From contig CALCKT010000062.1 of NCBI GenBank assembly GCA_937965785.1, positions 27,893 to 91,892 on the forward strand: 64,000 bases of DNA, written 5' to 3'. The notes below the pieces were generated by a model. The model saw nothing but the letters and a program-made list of their open reading frames with translations, searched no databases and was not told the DNA's origin. The position numbers and the translations under genes were made by a program. Each line of letters opens with the position of its first letter. The stretch's first letter is position 1. Of this stretch, positions 42,547 through 48,028 are shown piece after piece. This DNA is from an uncultured Propionibacteriaceae bacterium (lineage in GTDB: Bacteria > Actinomycetota > Actinomycetes > Propionibacteriales > Propionibacteriaceae).

Positions 42547-43806
42547 TCAGGACAGCAGTCCTAGGGGAATGACCGCGACCCCGTCGTCGCGACGGTAGGC
42601 GTATTCGCCGGTGGTGACGACCACCTTGTCGACGAGGCGCCCACCGATGCGATCGCCCAGCCAGTGGAGGTGCCGCACATCGGCATCGTCGGGGTCGCGG
42701 GCCAGTTTGACCTCGATGGCCACCACCCTGCCCGCGGTGTTCTCGACGATGAGGTCGATCTCGTGGTCCCCGTTGCGGGTCCGCAGGTGCGATGTCCGCA
42801 GCCCGGCGGCCGTGGCGCGCGCCCTCACGCACAAGGTGACCAGGGACTCGAAGAGCTGCCCCAGGATCTCCCCCGAGCCCGGGGAGCCGCTGAGCAGCTT
42901 CGCGGGGGTGACGTCGAGGAGACGAGCCGCCAGCGCCGGGTCGAGCAGCTGATGCTTTGGCCCGGTTTTGAGCCTGGCCAGTGGGGCCAGCGATGTGGTC
43001 CAGCCCGGGACGGGGTCGAGCACCCAGATCCGGGTGAGGAGGTCGCGGTAGGTCTGGGTTGCGCCGCGGCTGGGTTTGTCGGTCTCGCCGGCGGTTGCCG
43101 CCCCCAGGATTGCCGTGTAGGAGGCCGTCGTTGATGTTGCGGCGGCGTAGGCGGTGAGCCAGGCCATCAAGGCCTGAGGGCGCCGGACCAGCACCCCCTC
43201 CTCGGGAAGGTCGCGGTCGACGATGCGGGCGAGATAGCTGTCGAGCTGGAGGCCCAGGGCGGCGGGACGGATGCCGCGCAGGCCGGGCAGCCCGGAGGCG
43301 CATATTTCCTCGGCGTAGTCGGGCAGTCTGAGCGGGCTGTGTCCCTCGATCGTCGCTTCGCGTTTCAGGAGCTTGGCGACATCGATTCCGCCCGGGGCGA
43401 CACCGCGTTCGGTGAGCGACATCGGTCGCATGACGAGGGATGCGATGCGTCCCGCGCCGGAATGGCTGGTGGTGCCGGGCCGTGGGGTGGCGCTGCCGGT
43501 GAGCAGGACGGCCAGGTCGCGGCGACGGTCCACCGCGCGACGGATGCGATCCCACACCGGCGGATAATGCTGCCATTCGTCAATGAGGACCGTTTCGTCG
43601 ACGCCGAGCAGGGCATCCGTGTCGGCACGCAGCGCTGCCAGGGTGTGTGGGTCGTCGAGTTCAAGGACACGCTGCACGCGACGGCGTGCGGTCTCGGTCT
43701 TGCCAACTGCCTTTGCCCCCTCGATCGCGATGGCGGGCACGTCGGGGAAGACCTCGTCCAAGAAGTTGTCCAAGGCTCTGCGCAAGTACTTCACAAGCCC
43801 TACCAT
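42547..43806 (-). CDS. COG1373 ATPase (AAA domain + DUF4143)
   Basis: Walker A GAKAVGKT and the family-typical order. It is a paralog of the 50332-51582 gene. Confidence 0.7.
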   Translation of the reverse strand: MVGLVKYLRRALDNFLDEVFPDVPAIAIEGAKAVGKTETARRRVQRVLELDDPHTLAALRADTDALLGVDETVLIDEWQHYPPVWDRIRRAVDRRRDLAVLLTGSATPRPGTTSHSGAGRIASLVMRPMSLTERGVAPGGIDVAKLLKREATIEGHSPLRLPDYAEEICASGLPGLRGIRPAALGLQLDSYLARIVDRDLPEEGVLVRRPQALMAWLTAYAAATSTTASYTAILGAATAGETDKPSRGATQTYRDLLTRIWVLDPVPGWTTSLAPLARLKTGPKHQLLDPALAARLLDVTPAKLLSGSPGSGEILGQLFESLVTLCVRARATAAGLRTSHLRTRNGDHEIDLIVENTAGRVVAIEVKLARDPDDADVRHLHWLGDRIGGRLVDKVVVTTGEYAYRRDDGVAVIPLGLLS

Positions 43807-44627
43807 ACAAAACGCAGGATTCCTACTGGTCAAAACGCATGATTTCTACCAGCCAAAACGCCGAACCGTGGCAGGTCGGGACGAGCGGTGGAGATCCTCG
43901 TCCGCAGCGTCGAGCAGGATTCTTCCCTGGGAGGCCGCCCGTTCCTCGGCGCGCCGCAGCAGTCCTTCGTCCAGCGCGATCGTGGCGTGCGTGGTTGCAT
44001 CAAGGCATTCGGCGTCTACATCAGGGCAGGTTTGTGGTCGTTGGCTCTTCCCAAACGCAAAGGACCGGCCCTGGACTCCCGCCGGAGCGGGCAGCGGAAC
44101 CGGTCATGTTGATGCCCAAGGTAGCACAGGCCACACCGGGCAATGGGCGTAGTCCGCAACCCCTGTGTCGGGGTGGTAGCTACGGTTGTCATCGACGCTG
44201 GATGCGCCAGTGCCGATGTAGAGGTGAAGTATGACACGGCGACTCTTTCGATTCCGATGGTCCGCTCTTCGAAAGTGCAACAACAGGGTTTGAGCTTCCC
44301 CTGACGCAAGGGGAAGTCGATTCGCTAATTTCCGTGATAGAAGCAAGAGTAGGCCGTCTGCCATTGATTCGAGAGAACTGAAAATAGAGGTGCGTCTAGA
44401 GGCTTGTTCGTAGGGTGCATGCTACTTGACGAACCCTTTCACGGAGCAGAATTGAGGATGGTTGAGAACGGGCTGCTTGCTGATCATTCAGCGATCTATT
44501 AAATCTCTGATTTGACGTGAATCAAAGACGGTTTCTATTGAAACTGGAGTTGGGATTAATTCGAGAGTTAAATAACTTTTCTGGTAACATTGTCCGAGGC
44601 TTCTGTGGAGTCAAAATTTCCGGTGTT

Positions 44628-45032
44628 TCAAGATCGTTTTGCTGTTATTTTCGTGCACTCATTGAGCCAATTTACCAAGCCGGCGTAGTCCAGAAGGCGC
44701 TGGTCGTCCTTGTCTCGGGTTCCGAGGGCTCGTATGACGTGGGCGGCCTCATCTTGGTCCACATCTAGTTCCACGCCGTTTAGCTTCAAGAAAATCATTG
44801 CGATAAGCCAGGCGAGGCGTTTGTTGCCGTCTTGGAACGCCTGAGCCTCGGCGATGCCGAAGGTCAGGCGCGCGACCTTCTCGATGAGCGTGGGATACAG
44901 ATCGGCGCCACCGAATGACTGAAAAGGCTGCACCAGTGCGCTTTCGAGCTTTTCTCGGTCACGAAGAGGACCGGCATTGACCTCTTGCCCGTAGATTTTC
45001 AAGCAGAGGTCAATGCCGATTAGCGTCGTCAC
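44628..45032 (-). CDS. Doc/Fic-family toxin homolog with Gln replacing the catalytic His
   Basis: AQAFQDGNKR aligns to the Doc motif HxFx(D/N)(A/G)NKR (P1 Doc has GHIFNDANKR). ATGA overlaps the upstream antitoxin, and GC is lower than the surroundings. Confidence 0.7.
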   Translation of the reverse strand: MTTLIGIDLCLKIYGQEVNAGPLRDREKLESALVQPFQSFGGADLYPTLIEKVARLTFGIAEAQAFQDGNKRLAWLIAMIFLKLNGVELDVDQDEAAHVIRALGTRDKDDQRLLDYAGLVNWLNECTKITAKRS

Positions 45033-45553
45033 TCGGCCAAGAGAGCCAAGGTGCGGCTCCAGCGCTGGCCCAAGCGGGCTGCGAGGTCCACTGCATGGTC
45101 GGGATCCGCATCCTGCAGGGGCGTCGAAGGCCGCACCGGGCCGGTGCCGTCCAAGCTTTGACGCGTGTACTCACGACGCATGGAGTCGTGAGTGATTTCG
45201 GTGGTACCACGGGCATCGTCGGGAAGGTCGCCCCGGGCCTCGCGCCAAGGCCGTTCGGCATGGCTCAGCACGGAGAGTTCCTCACCGGTCTTCTCGCCGT
45301 AGTGCGTCAGCACCGCATCGGCGATGGCCTTCTGGCCGGCGTCCAGGTCGCCGGCGGGGTGGGACTTCTCGTGCCAGACATCGCTGACGACCGGACCATT
45401 GACCCAGGCCTCGATCCGGTCCTCGAACAGAGGCCTGCCCGTCCAGGCCAGCGACCAGGCCTGTGCGTAGTAGAGCAGCTTTTGCTTCTGAGTGCGTCCG
45501 TCGAGGTGCTGCCTGCTCTCCATGTAGCGCAGCACGTCGCTCGCCCATGTCAT
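45029..45553 (-). CDS. Panacea (DUF4065, SocA-like) domain antitoxin
   Basis: QKQKLLYYAQAWSLAWTGRPLFEDRIEAWVNGPV is the hallmark Panacea N-terminal region. The ATG at 45553 is preceded by GGAGGAGG. Confidence 0.65.
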   Translation of the reverse strand: MTWASDVLRYMESRQHLDGRTQKQKLLYYAQAWSLAWTGRPLFEDRIEAWVNGPVVSDVWHEKSHPAGDLDAGQKAIADAVLTHYGEKTGEELSVLSHAERPWREARGDLPDDARGTTEITHDSMRREYTRQSLDGTGPVRPSTPLQDADPDHAVDLAARLGQRWSRTLALLAE

Positions 45554-45784
45554 CCAAATCGCCTCCTCCACGTCACTTGACAGTCTGTATCCGACTCCCT
45601 GACTTCATCATAGGTCGCGACACCCACAAGCTCGTAGAAGCCCATCAGCGCTGTGCGACTTGCCCGCTCATGGCGTCTTCAACAACCGTGTCCACGGGGC
45701 CAGGCGATCAACGGGTCATGCAGCAGGAAGGTCGGGATGCGGGGCCGGAATGACTCTCGGATGAAAGATTTTCGCGACGCCGTG

Positions 45785-45831
45785 GAAGGTTTTGGAGCGT
45801 GCACGCCACAAAACCTTCCACATGACATAAC
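45785..45831 (+). promoter_or_regulatory. Conserved 47-bp motif B (paralog of motif A)
   Basis: gaaggttttggagcgtgcacgccacaaaaccttccacatgacataac, about 100 bp upstream of the beta-helix gene. Confidence 0.5.
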
Positions 45832-45932: not shown

Positions 45933-46022
45933 ATGCGTCGAGTACTTGCGATGATGTCCGTCCTGGCCCTGGGGGCCGCGGTGTCATTGCAGAACGAGGC
46001 GGCAGCGGACGGGGGACCGTGA
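45933..46022 (+). pseudogene. Detached signal-peptide ORF of the beta-helix protein (frameshift)
   Basis: Encodes MRRVLAMMSVLALGAAVSLQNEAAADGGP*. One extra G in the G5 run at 46011-46015 would fuse it in frame to the 46019 ORF. Confidence 0.6.
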
Positions 46023-48028
46023 TCCACGTCTCGGTCAGCAGCGGCTCCAACTCTGGGGACGGCTCTGCCACCAGTCCTTACAAAACGATTTCAACTGCCC
46101 TGACGAAGGCCTCCGACGGCGACACGATCGAGCTCGCCGAGGGCGTCTACCAGGAGGGTGAGCTGATGGTCACCAAATCGGTCACCATCACCGCCGCATC
46201 CGGGGCCAAGCCCGTGATCTCGGGCGCGAAGAGCCCCGACACGTGGAAGGACGCCGGCAACGGCACCTGGGCCACCGCCAACGATACGGTGCGGTTCTGC
46301 GACGTCTGCACCACCAACGCCGACCCGTCCGTCGAGGGCATGGCGGCCCATCCCGAACAGGTTTTCGTCGACGGCCAGCCCCTGACCCAGGTGGCGACGA
46401 GGGCCGAGGTCACCGCGTCCACCTTCTTCGTCGACGATCCCGACCCCGTGACCCTGAAGGATCCGAAGAACAACCGGGCCGGCTACAACGTCAAACCACA
46501 CACCGGAACCTCCTACGTAATCGGCGTCAACCCCGCCGAGCACAAGGTGGAGGTGGTCCAGCACTCGCGGGCCCTGACCGTCACGACGGACAGGGCCAGC
46601 CTCAAGAACCTCACGGTCGAGAAGTACGCGCCCGTGCAGGCCTGGGACTACAAGGACCCCCAGATCGGCACCCTGAGCGGTGGCGCCATGGTGCTGGCCG
46701 GCGGCCAGGGCCTCAGGGTCGAGAACTCGGCCTTCCGCTACGCATCGGCCGCCACCGCCTTGGCCATCACCGACGCCAAGGAGGCCACGATCAGCGGGAA
46801 CACCATCGAGAACAACGGGGCCGTCGGGTTCGGGATCAACCGGTCCAGCAACGTCAACGTCGAGAAGAACCGATGGACGTCGAACAACACGGCGGGCTTC
46901 AACACCACCTCCTGCGGCGCCTACTGCACCATCGGCGACACCAAGATCACGCACTCGGAGGGTATCCGCTACGCCTACAACACCGTCGACTACTCGAACG
47001 CCGGCACCGACGTCTCCAAGCCCGATACCTACAAGAATGACCAGCGGGCCGGGGTCTGGTTCGACGAGGGGGTCATAAACTCCCAGGTGATCGGCAACTA
47101 CTTCGTCAACGTGCCGGTGGCGATCTTCAACGAGGTCTCCTCCAAGAACATGATTGCCTCCAACATCATCGAGGGCGCGGGCATCGGCATTCACGTCTCC
47201 GGATCGGACAACACCCAGATCTGGAACAACACCATCTCGCATGCGCTGACCAGCATCGCGATCCGGGAGGACTCGCGTTCCAAGGGTTGCAACGCCCGCA
47301 AGGAGGACGGCAGCTGCGCGGCCGAGGAGAAATGGAGCATCGAACACGGATTGTCGTGGGACACCACCGGCACCGAGGTGTTCAACAACATCCTCTCCTC
47401 CGAGCAGTCCAGCGCGCTGGCCGACGACAAGTGGCGCTACTCGGCGACGCTGCAGGTCGTGGGTGGCAAGAACGACGACGGCTCCGGCGCCTTCTACGCC
47501 AACGAAATGGTCGCGGGCATCGACCACAACGCCTACTACCGGGCACCCGCGCAACCGGAGGTGCCGAACACCACAGTGATGTGGAACTGGGGACCGGACA
47601 GGTTGAAGGAATCCGTCAATGCGGAAACCCTCTCCGAGTTCACCAACAACGAACACGTGATGGTCTCCGATCGTGAGGCCAACGGCCTGGACCTGCGCGG
47701 CACCCGCGAGGAGAACCCGCTCTTCGTGAGGGAAGCGGCGGATCCGACGGCGTGGAAGACCTCCGACTTCCACCCGAAGCCCGGCGGTCCCGCGGTCGCT
47801 TCGGGCCGGCCGCTGCCTGAGAACGTCGCGAAGGCCCTCGGAAGGCAGGCCGGGGTGGCCGTGGACCGCGGCGCCCTGTTCAACGCGGCCTGGCAGGACG
47901 GCGAACCGTTGGCCCCGACGTCGTCGCCCACCCCAACCTCATCCGATACGCCGACGCCCAGCGACCCCCGCGGCGGCAAGATGAAACCGGGGCTCCCGAG
48001 GACCGGGATCCCGGCCCGGACCGCCTGA
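46019..48028 (+). CDS. Secreted right-handed parallel beta-helix (pectate-lyase-like) repeat protein, N-terminally frameshifted
   Basis: Repeated NNxxxG/Ixxxxxxx beta-helix rungs and a Pro/Thr/Ser-rich C-terminus. The signal peptide is in another frame. Confidence 0.65.
   Translation: MIHVSVSSGSNSGDGSATSPYKTISTALTKASDGDTIELAEGVYQEGELMVTKSVTITAASGAKPVISGAKSPDTWKDAGNGTWATANDTVRFCDVCTTNADPSVEGMAAHPEQVFVDGQPLTQVATRAEVTASTFFVDDPDPVTLKDPKNNRAGYNVKPHTGTSYVIGVNPAEHKVEVVQHSRALTVTTDRASLKNLTVEKYAPVQAWDYKDPQIGTLSGGAMVLAGGQGLRVENSAFRYASAATALAITDAKEATISGNTIENNGAVGFGINRSSNVNVEKNRWTSNNTAGFNTTSCGAYCTIGDTKITHSEGIRYAYNTVDYSNAGTDVSKPDTYKNDQRAGVWFDEGVINSQVIGNYFVNVPVAIFNEVSSKNMIASNIIEGAGIGIHVSGSDNTQIWNNTISHALTSIAIREDSRSKGCNARKEDGSCAAEEKWSIEHGLSWDTTGTEVFNNILSSEQSSALADDKWRYSATLQVVGGKNDDGSGAFYANEMVAGIDHNAYYRAPAQPEVPNTTVMWNWGPDRLKESVNAETLSEFTNNEHVMVSDREANGLDLRGTREENPLFVREAADPTAWKTSDFHPKPGGPAVASGRPLPENVAKALGRQAGVAVDRGALFNAAWQDGEPLAPTSSPTPTSSDTPTPSDPRGGKMKPGLPRTGIPARTA

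What the first reader, a model, noticed from the sequence alone, without database searches (positions are those of the whole stretch)
44628..45553. Panacea (DUF4065) antitoxin coupled to a Doc-like toxin whose catalytic His is Gln
The upstream gene has the Panacea/SocA hallmark KQKLLYYAQAWSL...PLFED.IEAW.NGPV and an RBS-supported ATG. The downstream gene overlaps it by ATGA and aligns to Doc across the kinase motif, but reads AQAFQDGNKR where Doc has the catalytic histidine (H66 in P1 Doc, HxFx[DN][AG]NKR). Either the toxin is inactivated (a domesticated or decaying TA pair) or it is a Doc variant with altered chemistry. The pair sits in a locally lower-GC stretch, consistent with horizontal acquisition.
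Basis: partly seen in the sequence, partly recalled or inferred. Interest (0 to 1): 0.55.

Follow-up and report, generated by a model that had tools for sequence, protein, structure and literature searches.

The report
Panacea antitoxin with Gln-type Doc toxin
This is an intact two-gene toxin-antitoxin module (a Panacea-domain antitoxin and a Doc-family toxin) whose glutamine at the usual catalytic histidine marks a large, conserved and already described Doc subfamily, so it is not a sign of decay, and the locus is a fairly ordinary new member of known kinds.

Summary
On the minus strand, 45029-45553 encodes a Panacea/SocA-domain protein (Pfam E 2e-18). 44628-45032 encodes a Doc-family protein (Pfam Fic E 1e-12; the AF2 model best matches P1 Doc). 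Its motif AQAFQDGNKR puts Gln64 exactly on P1 Doc His66. One correction: the overlap is GTGA, not ATGA.

The interpretation needs revising. Gln is not a lesion. It is invariant in the 36-leaf clade around this gene and in 52 diverse Gln-type proteins chosen by motif, and the rest of the motif (DGNKR) is kept. dN/dS is 0.32 for the toxin and 0.17 for the antitoxin.

Gln-type Docs are abundant. They made up 96 of 260 retrieved homologues, and scans found more than 150 further environmental or viral loci. Most sit behind small Phd-like antitoxins. Khater & Mohanty (2015) already described this group in silico as Doc clade D2. PanA(Panacea+Phd-C):Doc pairs were validated experimentally in Corynebacterium doosanense (PNAS 2022, 2023). 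The antitoxin here carries the same kind of C-terminal tail.

His and Gln have interchanged repeatedly, including within the PanA-linked lineage.

Verdict: a new member of known kinds. I found no test of what a Gln-type Doc does biochemically. Interest is low to moderate.

The parts
45029..45553 (-). panA: Panacea-domain antitoxin gene, 174 aa (stop codon 45029-45031)
   Evidence: Pfam SocA_Panacea E 2.2e-18. PHROG 1281 E 5e-27. Full-length homologues of 173-187 aa occur in Propionibacteriaceae and other Actinobacteria. AF2 pLDDT 92.
45152..45553 (-). Globular Panacea core (residues 1-134; the Pfam match covers residues 24-103, nt 45245-45484)
   Evidence: AF2 secondary structure and pLDDT of 87 or more through residue 134. 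Invariant K25 Y28 Q31 W33 W37 F43 A49 W50 G53 P54 V55.
45032..45133 (-). C-terminal extension of PanA (residues 141-174): a linker followed by helix 151-173 ending ...RWSRTLALLAE. This is the inferred Phd-C-like toxin-neutralising element.
   Evidence: W165, L169, L172 and A173 are conserved in 36 PanAs. hhalign of the last 32 aa of PanAs against the last 32 aa of small antitoxins found upstream of Gln-type Docs gives prob 86%, E 5e-6, in register to the C-terminus. The same kind of tail occurs on Phd- and RHH-type antitoxins of His-type Docs. The C. doosanense PanA Phd-C (residues 155-188) is the neutralising part (PMC10440598).
45562..45569 (-). Shine-Dalgarno GGAGGAGG for panA, 8 nt upstream of ATG 45553
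   Evidence: Read from the sequence. Conserved in P. massiliense.
45554..45680 (-). Conserved 5' leader and putative promoter region of the operon
   Evidence: Part of the 92.5% identical block 45680-44605 shared with P. massiliense L083. The sigma-70 consensus scan found no site, so the promoter itself is not located.
45029..45032 (-). GTGA overlap: the toxin GTG start overlaps the panA TGA stop, which implies translational coupling
   Evidence: Read from the sequence. The same -4 overlap occurs in L083, L207, L209, L092 and L093.
44628..45032 (-). Gln-type Doc-family toxin gene, 134 aa (stop codon 44628-44630)
   Evidence: Pfam Fic E 9.7e-13. PHROG 577 'Doc-like toxin' E 4e-20. AF2 pLDDT 91.9 with top Foldseek hits to P1 Doc 3dd7/3kh2/3k33, TM 0.63-0.78. 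dN/dS 0.32 against the P. massiliense orthologue.
44817..44843 (-). Active-site motif Q64-A-F-Q-D-G-N-K-R72, with Q64 (CAG) in place of the catalytic His
   Evidence: Gapless alignment to HIFNDANKR of P1 Doc. Q64, G69, N70, K71 and R72 are invariant in 52 Gln-type Docs of 31-85% identity chosen by motif.

Best explanation
A functional, selection-maintained type II toxin-antitoxin operon of the PanAT kind.

The toxin is a single-domain Doc-fold protein of the conserved Gln-type subfamily (QxFxDGNKR). The antitoxin is a Panacea domain followed by a Phd-C-like C-terminal helix.

Shown:
- The family and fold assignments.
- The Gln at the His position.
- Its strict conservation, together with the phosphate- and Mg-binding DGNKR residues.
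- Purifying selection on both genes.
- Constant pairing of the two genes across chromosomal and prophage contexts.
- The conserved C-terminal tail of PanA, which resembles the tails of other Doc antitoxins.

Inferred:
- The PanA tail lies in the Doc groove and blocks the active site, as Phd does and as the C. doosanense PanA Phd-C does. The Panacea core would then be an accessory or sensor part.
- Once freed, the toxin still binds NTP and acts as a phosphotransferase that arrests translation, by homology through EF-Tu. Gln64 would orient the acceptor hydroxyl rather than deprotonate it, with the transferred phosphate acting as base. This would probably make it slower than a His-type enzyme.
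- The likely biological role is stabilisation of mobile elements and/or abortive-infection phage defence.
For: Family, fold and motif.

Conservation of Gln:
- All roughly 28 close homologues down to 47% identity carry AEAQA[FY]xDGNKR.
- The position was tallied in two searches that imposed no motif: His 98 / Gln 71 / Pro 1, with a further listing. Pooled over 260 homologues it is H 139, Q 96, P 1.
- Full-length proteins with a degenerate rest-of-motif are as rare among Gln types (P0164) as among His types (P0063, P0338).

Other points:
- No other alignment column separates Gln types from His types.
- dN/dS is 0.32 for the toxin and 0.17 for PanA.
- PanA lies immediately upstream of the toxin in L081-L085, L086/L087 (there frameshifted), L088, L090/L091 (Micropruina prophage), L207 and L209 (Cutibacterium avidum).
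- In 112 further loci holding a Gln-type Doc, most of those with an upstream ORF have a small one ending in a Phd-C-like ...LRKLAQ tail. That is the organisation expected of a toxin that needs neutralising.
- Tail homology is supported.
- Experimental precedent for PanA(Phd-C):Doc covers toxicity, translation inhibition, complex formation and neutralisation by the tail (PMC8832971, PMC10440598).
- Disrupted toxin alleles that remove the motif region exist in natural populations. This fits a toxin that is costly when unneutralised.
Against: - His66 is required for P1 Doc toxicity. The H66Y mutant was used for crystallography (PDB 3dd7), and PMC4454073 states that the His is essential. Gln cannot act as a general base.
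- I found no experiment on any Gln-type Doc.
- A Doc from Waddlia whose motif is not conserved was non-toxic in E. coli. Expression was not verified, and I could not obtain the residue concerned.
- In L086/L087 the panA gene is frameshifted while the Gln-type Doc is intact. This could mean the toxin is tolerated without a full antitoxin.
- The complex was not modelled here.
Confidence: 0.55

Rival explanations
1. Pseudo-enzyme or attenuated toxin. The Gln-type Doc has lost phosphotransfer and is kept for a non-catalytic role. Candidates are stoichiometric binding of EF-Tu or another target, acting as co-repressor of the operon, or serving as a partner or decoy for the Panacea sensor.
For: - The catalytic His is essential in P1 Doc (PMC4454073 as read; H66Y in 3dd7).
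- panA is frameshifted next to an intact toxin in L086/L087.
- Decayed copies exist in a complete genome: P0037 with PanA fragments P0394/P0395.
- A motif-divergent Doc from Waddlia was non-toxic in E. coli.
Against: - A role that needs only binding would not require strict retention of D68, G69, N70, K71 and R72, yet these are as conserved as in His-type Docs.
- Gln itself is fixed rather than drifting, with only one Pro among the Gln-type sequences, and that in a fragment.
- Neutralising antitoxins are retained throughout the subfamily.
Confidence: 0.22
2. Altered chemistry. Gln-type Docs are active enzymes with a different reaction or substrate from the EF-Tu Thr kinase of P1 Doc. Examples are an acceptor that needs no general base, NTP hydrolysis, or another translation or nucleic-acid target.
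For: - Small changes in the Fic motif are known to switch chemistry: AMPylation versus phosphorylation versus phosphocholination (PMC4454073, PMC10440598).
- Gln types also occur in unusual fusions: Doc(Q)+DUF6941, and a viral protein of at least 1100 aa with a weak Acb1/2H-like region.
Against: - Apart from position 64, no residue distinguishes Gln types from His types.
- His and Gln interchange between close relatives that share the same kind of antitoxin (64% identity P0042/P0029; L207 versus L090). This argues for near-equivalent function rather than a new one.
Confidence: 0.18
3. Decaying or domesticated remnant. This was the first reader's alternative: a broken toxin that persists by chance beside its antitoxin.
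For: - The toxin gene has lower GC than its surroundings.
- Truncated and deleted alleles exist in related metagenome contigs.
Against: - The ORF is full length, its AF2 model has pLDDT 91.9, and dN/dS is 0.32.
- The motif is identical across species at 47-96% identity.
- The module is retained syntenically in P. massiliense and independently in C. avidum, Micropruina prophages and others.
Confidence: 0.05

Closest known systems
Corynebacterium doosanense PanA:Doc (PanAT 'T7' Fic/Doc cluster; Doc_D6:PanA_Phd-C), Kurata et al. PNAS 2022 and Ernits et al. PNAS 2023
   Same: - The gene order is antitoxin then toxin, overlapping or closely adjacent.
- The antitoxin is a Panacea core plus a C-terminal extension of about 34 aa (188 aa there, 174 aa here).
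- The toxin is a single-domain Doc.
- The host is an actinobacterium.
- The inferred neutralisation is by the C-terminal tail.
   Different: - The authors state that the active-site residues of their Doc match P1 Doc. Here the first motif residue is Gln.
- I could not retrieve WP_018022804.1 to check that statement.
- Nothing has been tested experimentally for the present pair.
Doc clade D2, consensus Qx[F|Y]x[D|E][G|V]NKR (Khater & Mohanty, Sci Rep 2015, PMC4454073)
   Same: Gln replaces the catalytic His while the rest of the Doc motif is kept. The proteins are single-domain and bacterial. Those authors also argued that selection retains the variant.
   Different: - They reported 45 sequences forming one clade and did not analyse the antitoxins.
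- Here the Gln type is far more abundant: 96 of 260 nearest homologues, plus more than 150 environmental or viral loci.
- It appears to have arisen or reverted many times.
- In this lineage it is partnered with Panacea instead of a small Phd/RHH antitoxin.
Phage P1 Phd-Doc (PDB 3k33, 3dd7, 3kh2)
   Same: The Doc fold (TM 0.63-0.78), the xxFxDxNKR motif in register, an antitoxin encoded upstream, and a helical C-terminal antitoxin segment as the neutraliser.
   Different: - About 19% sequence identity.
- His66 becomes Gln64.
- The antitoxin's globular part is Panacea, not the Phd/YefM DNA-binding fold, so autoregulation, if any, must work differently.
SocAB of Caulobacter (type VI TA; the SocA Panacea protein is a ClpXP adaptor)
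   Same: The antitoxin contains the same Pfam domain (PF13274).
   Different: - The NCBIfam SocA equivalog scores 36.9 bits against a cutoff of 190, so this is not an orthologue.
- The partner toxin is Doc, not SocB.
- There is no evidence of adaptor-type neutralisation.
PanA-Doc pairs of Mycobacterium abscessus prophages prophi68-1 / GD04-1 / GD12-2
   Same: The same two-gene architecture with a -4 overlap. The PanA tails are ...EWSETLEWLATR and ...RWRGVLDLLAER. The pairs lie at the prophage end beside the integrase.
   Different: - Those Docs are His-type (ANHPFHEGNKR, SAHAFFDGNKR).
- The GenBank records label the Panacea gene 'GepA-like toxin' and the Doc gene 'antitoxin', which appears to be reversed.

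Membership tests
Fic/Doc superfamily, Doc subfamily | Significant match to the Pfam Fic/DOC profile PF02661 above the gathering score | tested here: met
   49.2 bits against a cutoff of 24, E 9.7e-13
Fic/Doc superfamily, Doc subfamily | NCBIfam DOC_P1 (TIGR01550) score above the curated cutoff | tested here: not met
   37.7 bits against 38.65, a marginal miss. Close homologues are nevertheless named 'death-on-curing family toxin' by NCBI.
Fic/Doc superfamily, Doc subfamily | Compact all-helical Doc fold | tested here: met
   AF2 pLDDT 91.9, six helices. The top five Foldseek PDB hits are all P1 Doc chains, TM 0.63-0.78.
Fic/Doc superfamily, Doc subfamily | Doc-type motif ending (D/N)(A/G)NKR, with Lys where Fic AMPylators have Gly | tested here: met
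   D68-G-N-K-R72, aligned without gaps to DANKR of P1 Doc
Fic/Doc superfamily, Doc subfamily | Catalytic His as the first motif residue | tested here: not met
   Gln64 (CAG), with no His within the motif helix
Fic/Doc superfamily, Doc subfamily | Kinase activity on EF-Tu and growth arrest | not testable with these tools
   Needs expression and biochemistry
Gln-type Doc (clade D2 of Khater & Mohanty 2015) | Motif Qx[FY]x[DE][GV]NKR in a single-domain bacterial Doc | tested here: met
   QAFQDGNKR in a 134-aa single-domain protein from a Propionibacteriaceae-like contig
Gln-type Doc (clade D2 of Khater & Mohanty 2015) | Phylogenetic placement inside one monophyletic D2 clade | tested here: inconclusive
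   Their tree is not available to me. My NJ tree of 396 domains gives about 24 His/Gln changes, against 131 in shuffles. The window gene sits in an all-Gln clade of 36 leaves whose neighbours are mixed. Short-domain NJ trees are noisy.
PanAT (type II TA with a Panacea-domain antitoxin) | Antitoxin matches Pfam SocA_Panacea PF13274 above the gathering score | tested here: met
   67.7 bits against 25.7
PanAT (type II TA with a Panacea-domain antitoxin) | Conserved bicistronic arrangement with a toxin-like gene across genomes | tested here: met
   GTGA overlap here. PanA is immediately upstream of the Doc gene in L081-L091 and L207-L210, in different neighbourhoods. In L086/L087 the panA gene is frameshifted.
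PanAT (type II TA with a Panacea-domain antitoxin) | For the Doc-linked class: a C-terminal Phd-C element that carries neutralisation | tested here: met
   A conserved C-terminal helix ...RWxxTLxLLA. Profile-profile match to the tails of other Doc antitoxins: prob 86%, E 5e-6. This is sequence-level evidence only.
PanAT (type II TA with a Panacea-domain antitoxin) | Direct complex formation and neutralisation of toxicity | not testable with these tools
   Only single-chain prediction was available, and no complex model was made
SocA (type VI antitoxin, ClpXP adaptor) | NCBIfam SocA_antitoxin equivalog NF047745 above cutoff | tested here: not met
   36.9 bits against 190, and only residues 24-62 match

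The most novel reading that the evidence does not exclude
Gln-type Docs are not merely tolerated variants. On this reading they form a second catalytic class of Doc toxins. Either Gln orients the nucleophile for substrate-assisted phosphotransfer, or they act on a different acceptor. The repeated single-nucleotide His(CAY)/Gln(CAR) toggling would then be an evolutionary dial for toxin potency or specificity. It is seen even between related prophage-borne PanA-Doc modules.
Probability: 0.2. Interest if true: 0.6.

Novelty: new member of a known kind. Interest (0 to 1): 0.3.

Why it matters
For this locus the matter is mainly one of correct annotation. It is an intact PanA-Doc toxin-antitoxin module in a human-associated Propionibacteriaceae genome. 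It lies next to a variable spot that holds a candidate defence gene.

The wider point is that a very large share of Doc-family toxins carry Gln where the textbook mechanism requires His. They keep the rest of the active site and they keep their antitoxins. I could not find any biochemical test of them.

Showing what they do would either extend the Doc kinase mechanism or reveal a new toxin activity. The PanA-linked lineage contains close His and Gln relatives, so it would be a convenient system for that test.

Tried and rejected
1. The genome-contig scan used an alignment that mixed His and Gln types.

2. I tried to obtain the C. doosanense Doc sequence (WP_018022804.1) to see whether the experimentally toxic PanA-linked Doc is His or Gln. 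None of these attempts produced it:
- the supplements of both PNAS papers;
- plasmid and phage tblastn searches;
- a third profile search;
- a cluster look-up;
- a guess at P0244, which proved to be a PanA-ParE pair.

3. I looked for a compensating catalytic residue specific to Gln types. No alignment column other than position 64 discriminates them.

4. I tested whether Gln types pair specifically with Panacea. This is rejected: none of 112 scanned Gln-type loci has Panacea nearby, and His-type Docs with PanA exist.

5. Regulatory scans gave nothing: no sigma-70 promoter and no terminator for the operon, and no credible RNA family.

6. The Panacea model and profile have no significant match among solved structures.

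7. The low-GC argument for recent transfer is weak. The dip is confined to the toxin and the spacer, and it is shared with the syntenic P. massiliense orthologue.

8. Literature searches for H66Q or Gln-type Doc biochemistry found nothing relevant.
Full report
**What is there**

Both genes lie on the minus strand.

The upstream ORF is best started at ATG 45553 (MTWASDV...). A GGAGGAGG ribosome-binding site sits 8 nt upstream, at 45562-45569, and homologues start at the same aligned position. It scores Pfam SocA_Panacea at E 2.2e-18, 67.7 bits against a cutoff of 25.7. It scores far below the NCBIfam SocA equivalog cutoff, 36.9 against 190. It is therefore a Panacea-domain protein but not a SocA orthologue.

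The downstream ORF (44628-45032, 134 aa) starts with GTG, and that GTG overlaps the upstream TGA. The overlap is GTGA, not ATGA. The ORF scores Pfam Fic/DOC at E 9.7e-13, NCBIfam DOC_P1 at 37.7 bits against 38.65, and PHROG 'Doc-like toxin' at E 4e-20.

phmmer against PDB sequences aligns AEAQAFQDGNKR without gaps to ARGHIFNDANKR of P1 Doc and to TKHCFYNANKR of an Enterococcus Doc. Gln64 (CAG, 44841-44843) therefore sits on the catalytic His. The only His in the protein, H98, is not conserved.

An AF2 model built from 65 homologues has pLDDT 91.9. Its five best Foldseek matches in the PDB are all P1 Doc chains, with TM 0.63-0.78.

**Origin and synteny**

The exact toxin sequence occurs on a 134.6-kb human-metagenome scaffold. 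An orthologous pair lies at the same chromosomal site in Pseudopropionibacterium massiliense, between a beta-helix surface protein and the YibE_F / rhomboid / PBP genes. There the toxin is 85% identical and the antitoxin 95% identical in amino acids.

The module, window 45680-44605, is 92.5% identical in nucleotides between the two, and the flank 42627-41001 is 92% identical. Between them the window carries about 2 kb that P. massiliense lacks.

The low-GC signal concerns only the toxin gene (0.553) and the spacer 43834-44627 (0.548). The antitoxin is at 0.665 and the window as a whole at 0.662. The same contrast is present in P. massiliense.

**Is the Gln a lesion?**

No. All close homologues down to 47% identity carry AEAQA[FY]xDGNKR. 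They come from Pseudopropionibacterium, Arachnia propionica, Micropruina, Cutibacterium avidum and many metagenome contigs.

Two searches imposed no motif. An exhaustive HMMER search of 1.84 billion representatives gave 4263 hits, and I tallied the position over its best 150 together with the set: His 98, Gln 71, Pro 1, the Pro being in a truncated fragment. Pooled with the profile search, the count over 260 homologues is H 139, Q 96, P 1.

In an alignment of 52 Gln-type proteins chosen by motif, 31-85% identical to the query, Q64, G69, N70, K71, R72 and A74 are invariant. Full-length proteins with a degenerate remainder of the motif are as rare among Gln types as among His types.

NG86 dN/dS between the window and P. 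massiliense is 0.32 for the toxin and 0.17 for the antitoxin. More distant pairs give 0.1-0.4 with saturated dS.

No alignment column other than position 64 separates Gln types from His types. There is thus no obvious compensating catalytic residue and no sign of a remodelled site.

**How common, and with which partners?**

In 112 of these loci that hold a Gln-type Doc, none has a Panacea gene nearby. Most of those with an upstream ORF have a small one of 40-130 aa ending in ...ELLRKLAQ...TLRRLAK or similar.

The closest His-type Docs in species-representative genomes (80 loci) likewise have Phd/YefM- or RHH-type antitoxins. These end in ...KNxxAYEELAK or ...KNAELYRRLA, and none of those loci has Panacea.

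Conversely, Panacea-linked Docs can be His-type. Three Mycobacterium abscessus prophages show this. So does a phage-like metagenome contig, L207, whose Doc reads AHAFQDGNKR and is 50% identical to the window toxin.

Gln at the catalytic position and a Panacea partner are therefore independent traits. This locus simply combines them.

**His/Gln switching**

I built an NJ tree of 396 non-identical Doc domains, 216 His and 180 Gln, with the motif column removed. Fitch parsimony needs 24 state changes, against a mean of 131 (minimum 116) for shuffled states.

The window gene sits in an all-Gln clade of 36 leaves. The next nodes mix His types (P0042, P0045, P0046, P0310, P0311, P0327) and Gln types (P0027-29, P0307, P0321).

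P0042 (His) is 64% identical to P0029 (Gln, from a Micropruina prophage) outside the motif column. The PanA that partners the His-type L207 Doc is closer to the window PanA (56%) than the C. avidum PanA is (46%).

His (CAY) and Gln (CAR) differ by one third-position transversion. Short-domain NJ trees are noisy, so 24 is only a rough figure, but several recent switches are well supported. This pattern argues that both residues are compatible with the protein's selected function.

**The antitoxin**

AF2 (pLDDT 92) gives a globular core at residues 1-134, a lower-confidence linker, and a long C-terminal helix at 151-173.

Across 36 full-length homologues the C-terminus is ...RWxxTLxLLA(E/Q), with W165, L169, L172 and A173 conserved. 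Shorter PanAs of about 145 aa that pair with other toxins lack it.

A profile of the last 32 residues of 39 PanAs aligns, in register to the very C-terminus, with a profile of the last 32 residues of 52 small antitoxins found upstream of Gln-type Docs. hhalign gives prob 86% and E 5e-6.

This matches the published dissection of C. doosanense PanA, which has Panacea at 1-154 and Phd-C at 155-188. There the tail contacts the Doc active site in the model. Its removal abolishes neutralisation, and a SUMO-tail fusion neutralises without the Panacea domain (PMC10440598).

No solved structure matches the Panacea part.

**What is already known**

Khater & Mohanty (Sci Rep 2015, PMC4454073) described Doc clade D2. 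[quoted passage not shown] They argued from its retention that it is probably not dead.

Kurata et al. (PNAS 2022, PMC8832971) listed 32 Fic/Doc-like partners of Panacea, many of them in Actinobacteria. They validated the C. doosanense pair for toxicity, translation inhibition and complex formation. The 2023 paper says that this toxin's active-site residues match P1 Doc. I could not obtain the sequence to verify this.

I found no biochemical study of a Gln-type Doc. One report found a motif-divergent Doc from Waddlia non-toxic in E. coli, but expression was not verified and I could not obtain the residue concerned.

**Most likely mechanism**

Shown:
- A conserved, co-inherited, translationally coupled PanA-Doc operon.
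- A toxin with the Doc fold and an intact phosphate-binding motif, with a fixed Gln at the base position.
- An antitoxin tail of the Phd-C kind.

Inferred:
- The tail occludes the Doc groove, and the Panacea core is accessory or sensory.
- The free toxin remains an NTP-dependent transferase that arrests translation. Gln would position the acceptor rather than deprotonate it.

Rivals:
- A non-catalytic or attenuated toxin. This is supported by the essential His of P1 Doc and by L086/L087, where panA is frameshifted beside an intact toxin.
- A changed reaction or substrate.
- Simple decay, which the conservation data contradict.

**Verdict**

The locus is a real, intact member of two known kinds: a PanAT module and a Gln-type Doc. 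The combination is unremarkable given how freely both parts recombine. The only open question of wider interest is the untested chemistry of Gln-type Docs.

Noticed in passing
window 42547-43833 (-), within the insertion 42628-44604: A 428-aa AAA_14/DUF4143 ATPase gene lies just downstream of the toxin. It matches the PADLOC candidate defence family PDC-S01 over its full length (E 2.9e-70). P. massiliense has this gene type elsewhere in the locus and has only about 380 bp at this spot. The TA module therefore borders a variable, possibly defence-related, insertion point.
   Followed up: partly
window 43834-44627: About 800 bp of unusually low-GC sequence (0.47-0.55) lies between the toxin stop and the ATPase gene. 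It has no convincing ORF, RNA family or terminator. Only two short patches (44189-44235, 43920-43952) resemble the region of an 80-aa ORF downstream of the toxin in P. massiliense.
   Followed up: partly
window 45782-45821: A 40-nt near-perfect palindrome (GTGGAAGGTTTTGGAGCGTG/CACGCCACAAAACCTTCCAC) lies in the divergent intergenic region between panA and the beta-helix gene. It is conserved, with changes on both arms, in P. massiliense. It could be an operator or a structured element, and its function is unknown.
   Followed up: partly
L086 and L087, 3466-4003: Two independent metagenome assemblies share the same sequence here. The panA gene is split by a frameshift near residue 60, and conserved core residues are altered (LLCY, GTVV). 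The downstream Gln-type Doc gene (139 aa) and the PanA tail reading frame (...RRWSRTLALLAE) remain intact, next to an rve integrase.
   Followed up: partly
Proteins P0022, P0024, P0032, P0033, P0043, P0152, P0167 (close relatives of the window toxin): Natural disrupted toxin alleles exist. One type is a deletion after ...AQAFQDGN that fuses to DNA matching window 43830-44003. Others are in-frame losses of residues 7-70 or of the motif itself, and frameshifts right after AEAQ. A complete genome (3.14-Mb contig) has a truncated Doc (P0037) with fragmented PanA (P0394, P0395).
   Followed up: partly
L092 (MW584157.1) and L093 (MW584207.1): The M. abscessus prophage records annotate the Panacea gene as 'GepA-like toxin' and the Doc gene as 'antitoxin'. 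By domain content the roles appear to be reversed.
   Followed up: yes
P0097, P0150, L096 1976-2860, L100 899-1858; L123 2686-6000 and L205 2710-3936: Gln-type Doc domains also occur as N-terminal parts of longer proteins. One form is a Doc(STQxF)+DUF6941 fusion of 270-320 aa; L096 shows only the Fic match. Another, in viral contigs, is an ORF of at least 1100 aa with a weak Acb1/2H-phosphoesterase-like region (E 1e-3, below the cutoff).
   Followed up: partly
L088 6264-6995: In one Gln-type PanA-Doc locus, a second and larger Fic-domain gene (243 aa) lies 1.8 kb downstream, next to a PrsW protease gene and a dynamin-like gene.
   Followed up: no
window 46019-48028 (+): The divergent neighbour encodes a 669-aa right-handed beta-helix protein (Beta_helix / Pel9A-like). 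It has a Pro/Thr/Ser-rich C-terminal region ending in LPRTG, which looks like a sortase-anchored surface protein. The P. massiliense counterpart is shorter, at 518 aa.
   Followed up: no
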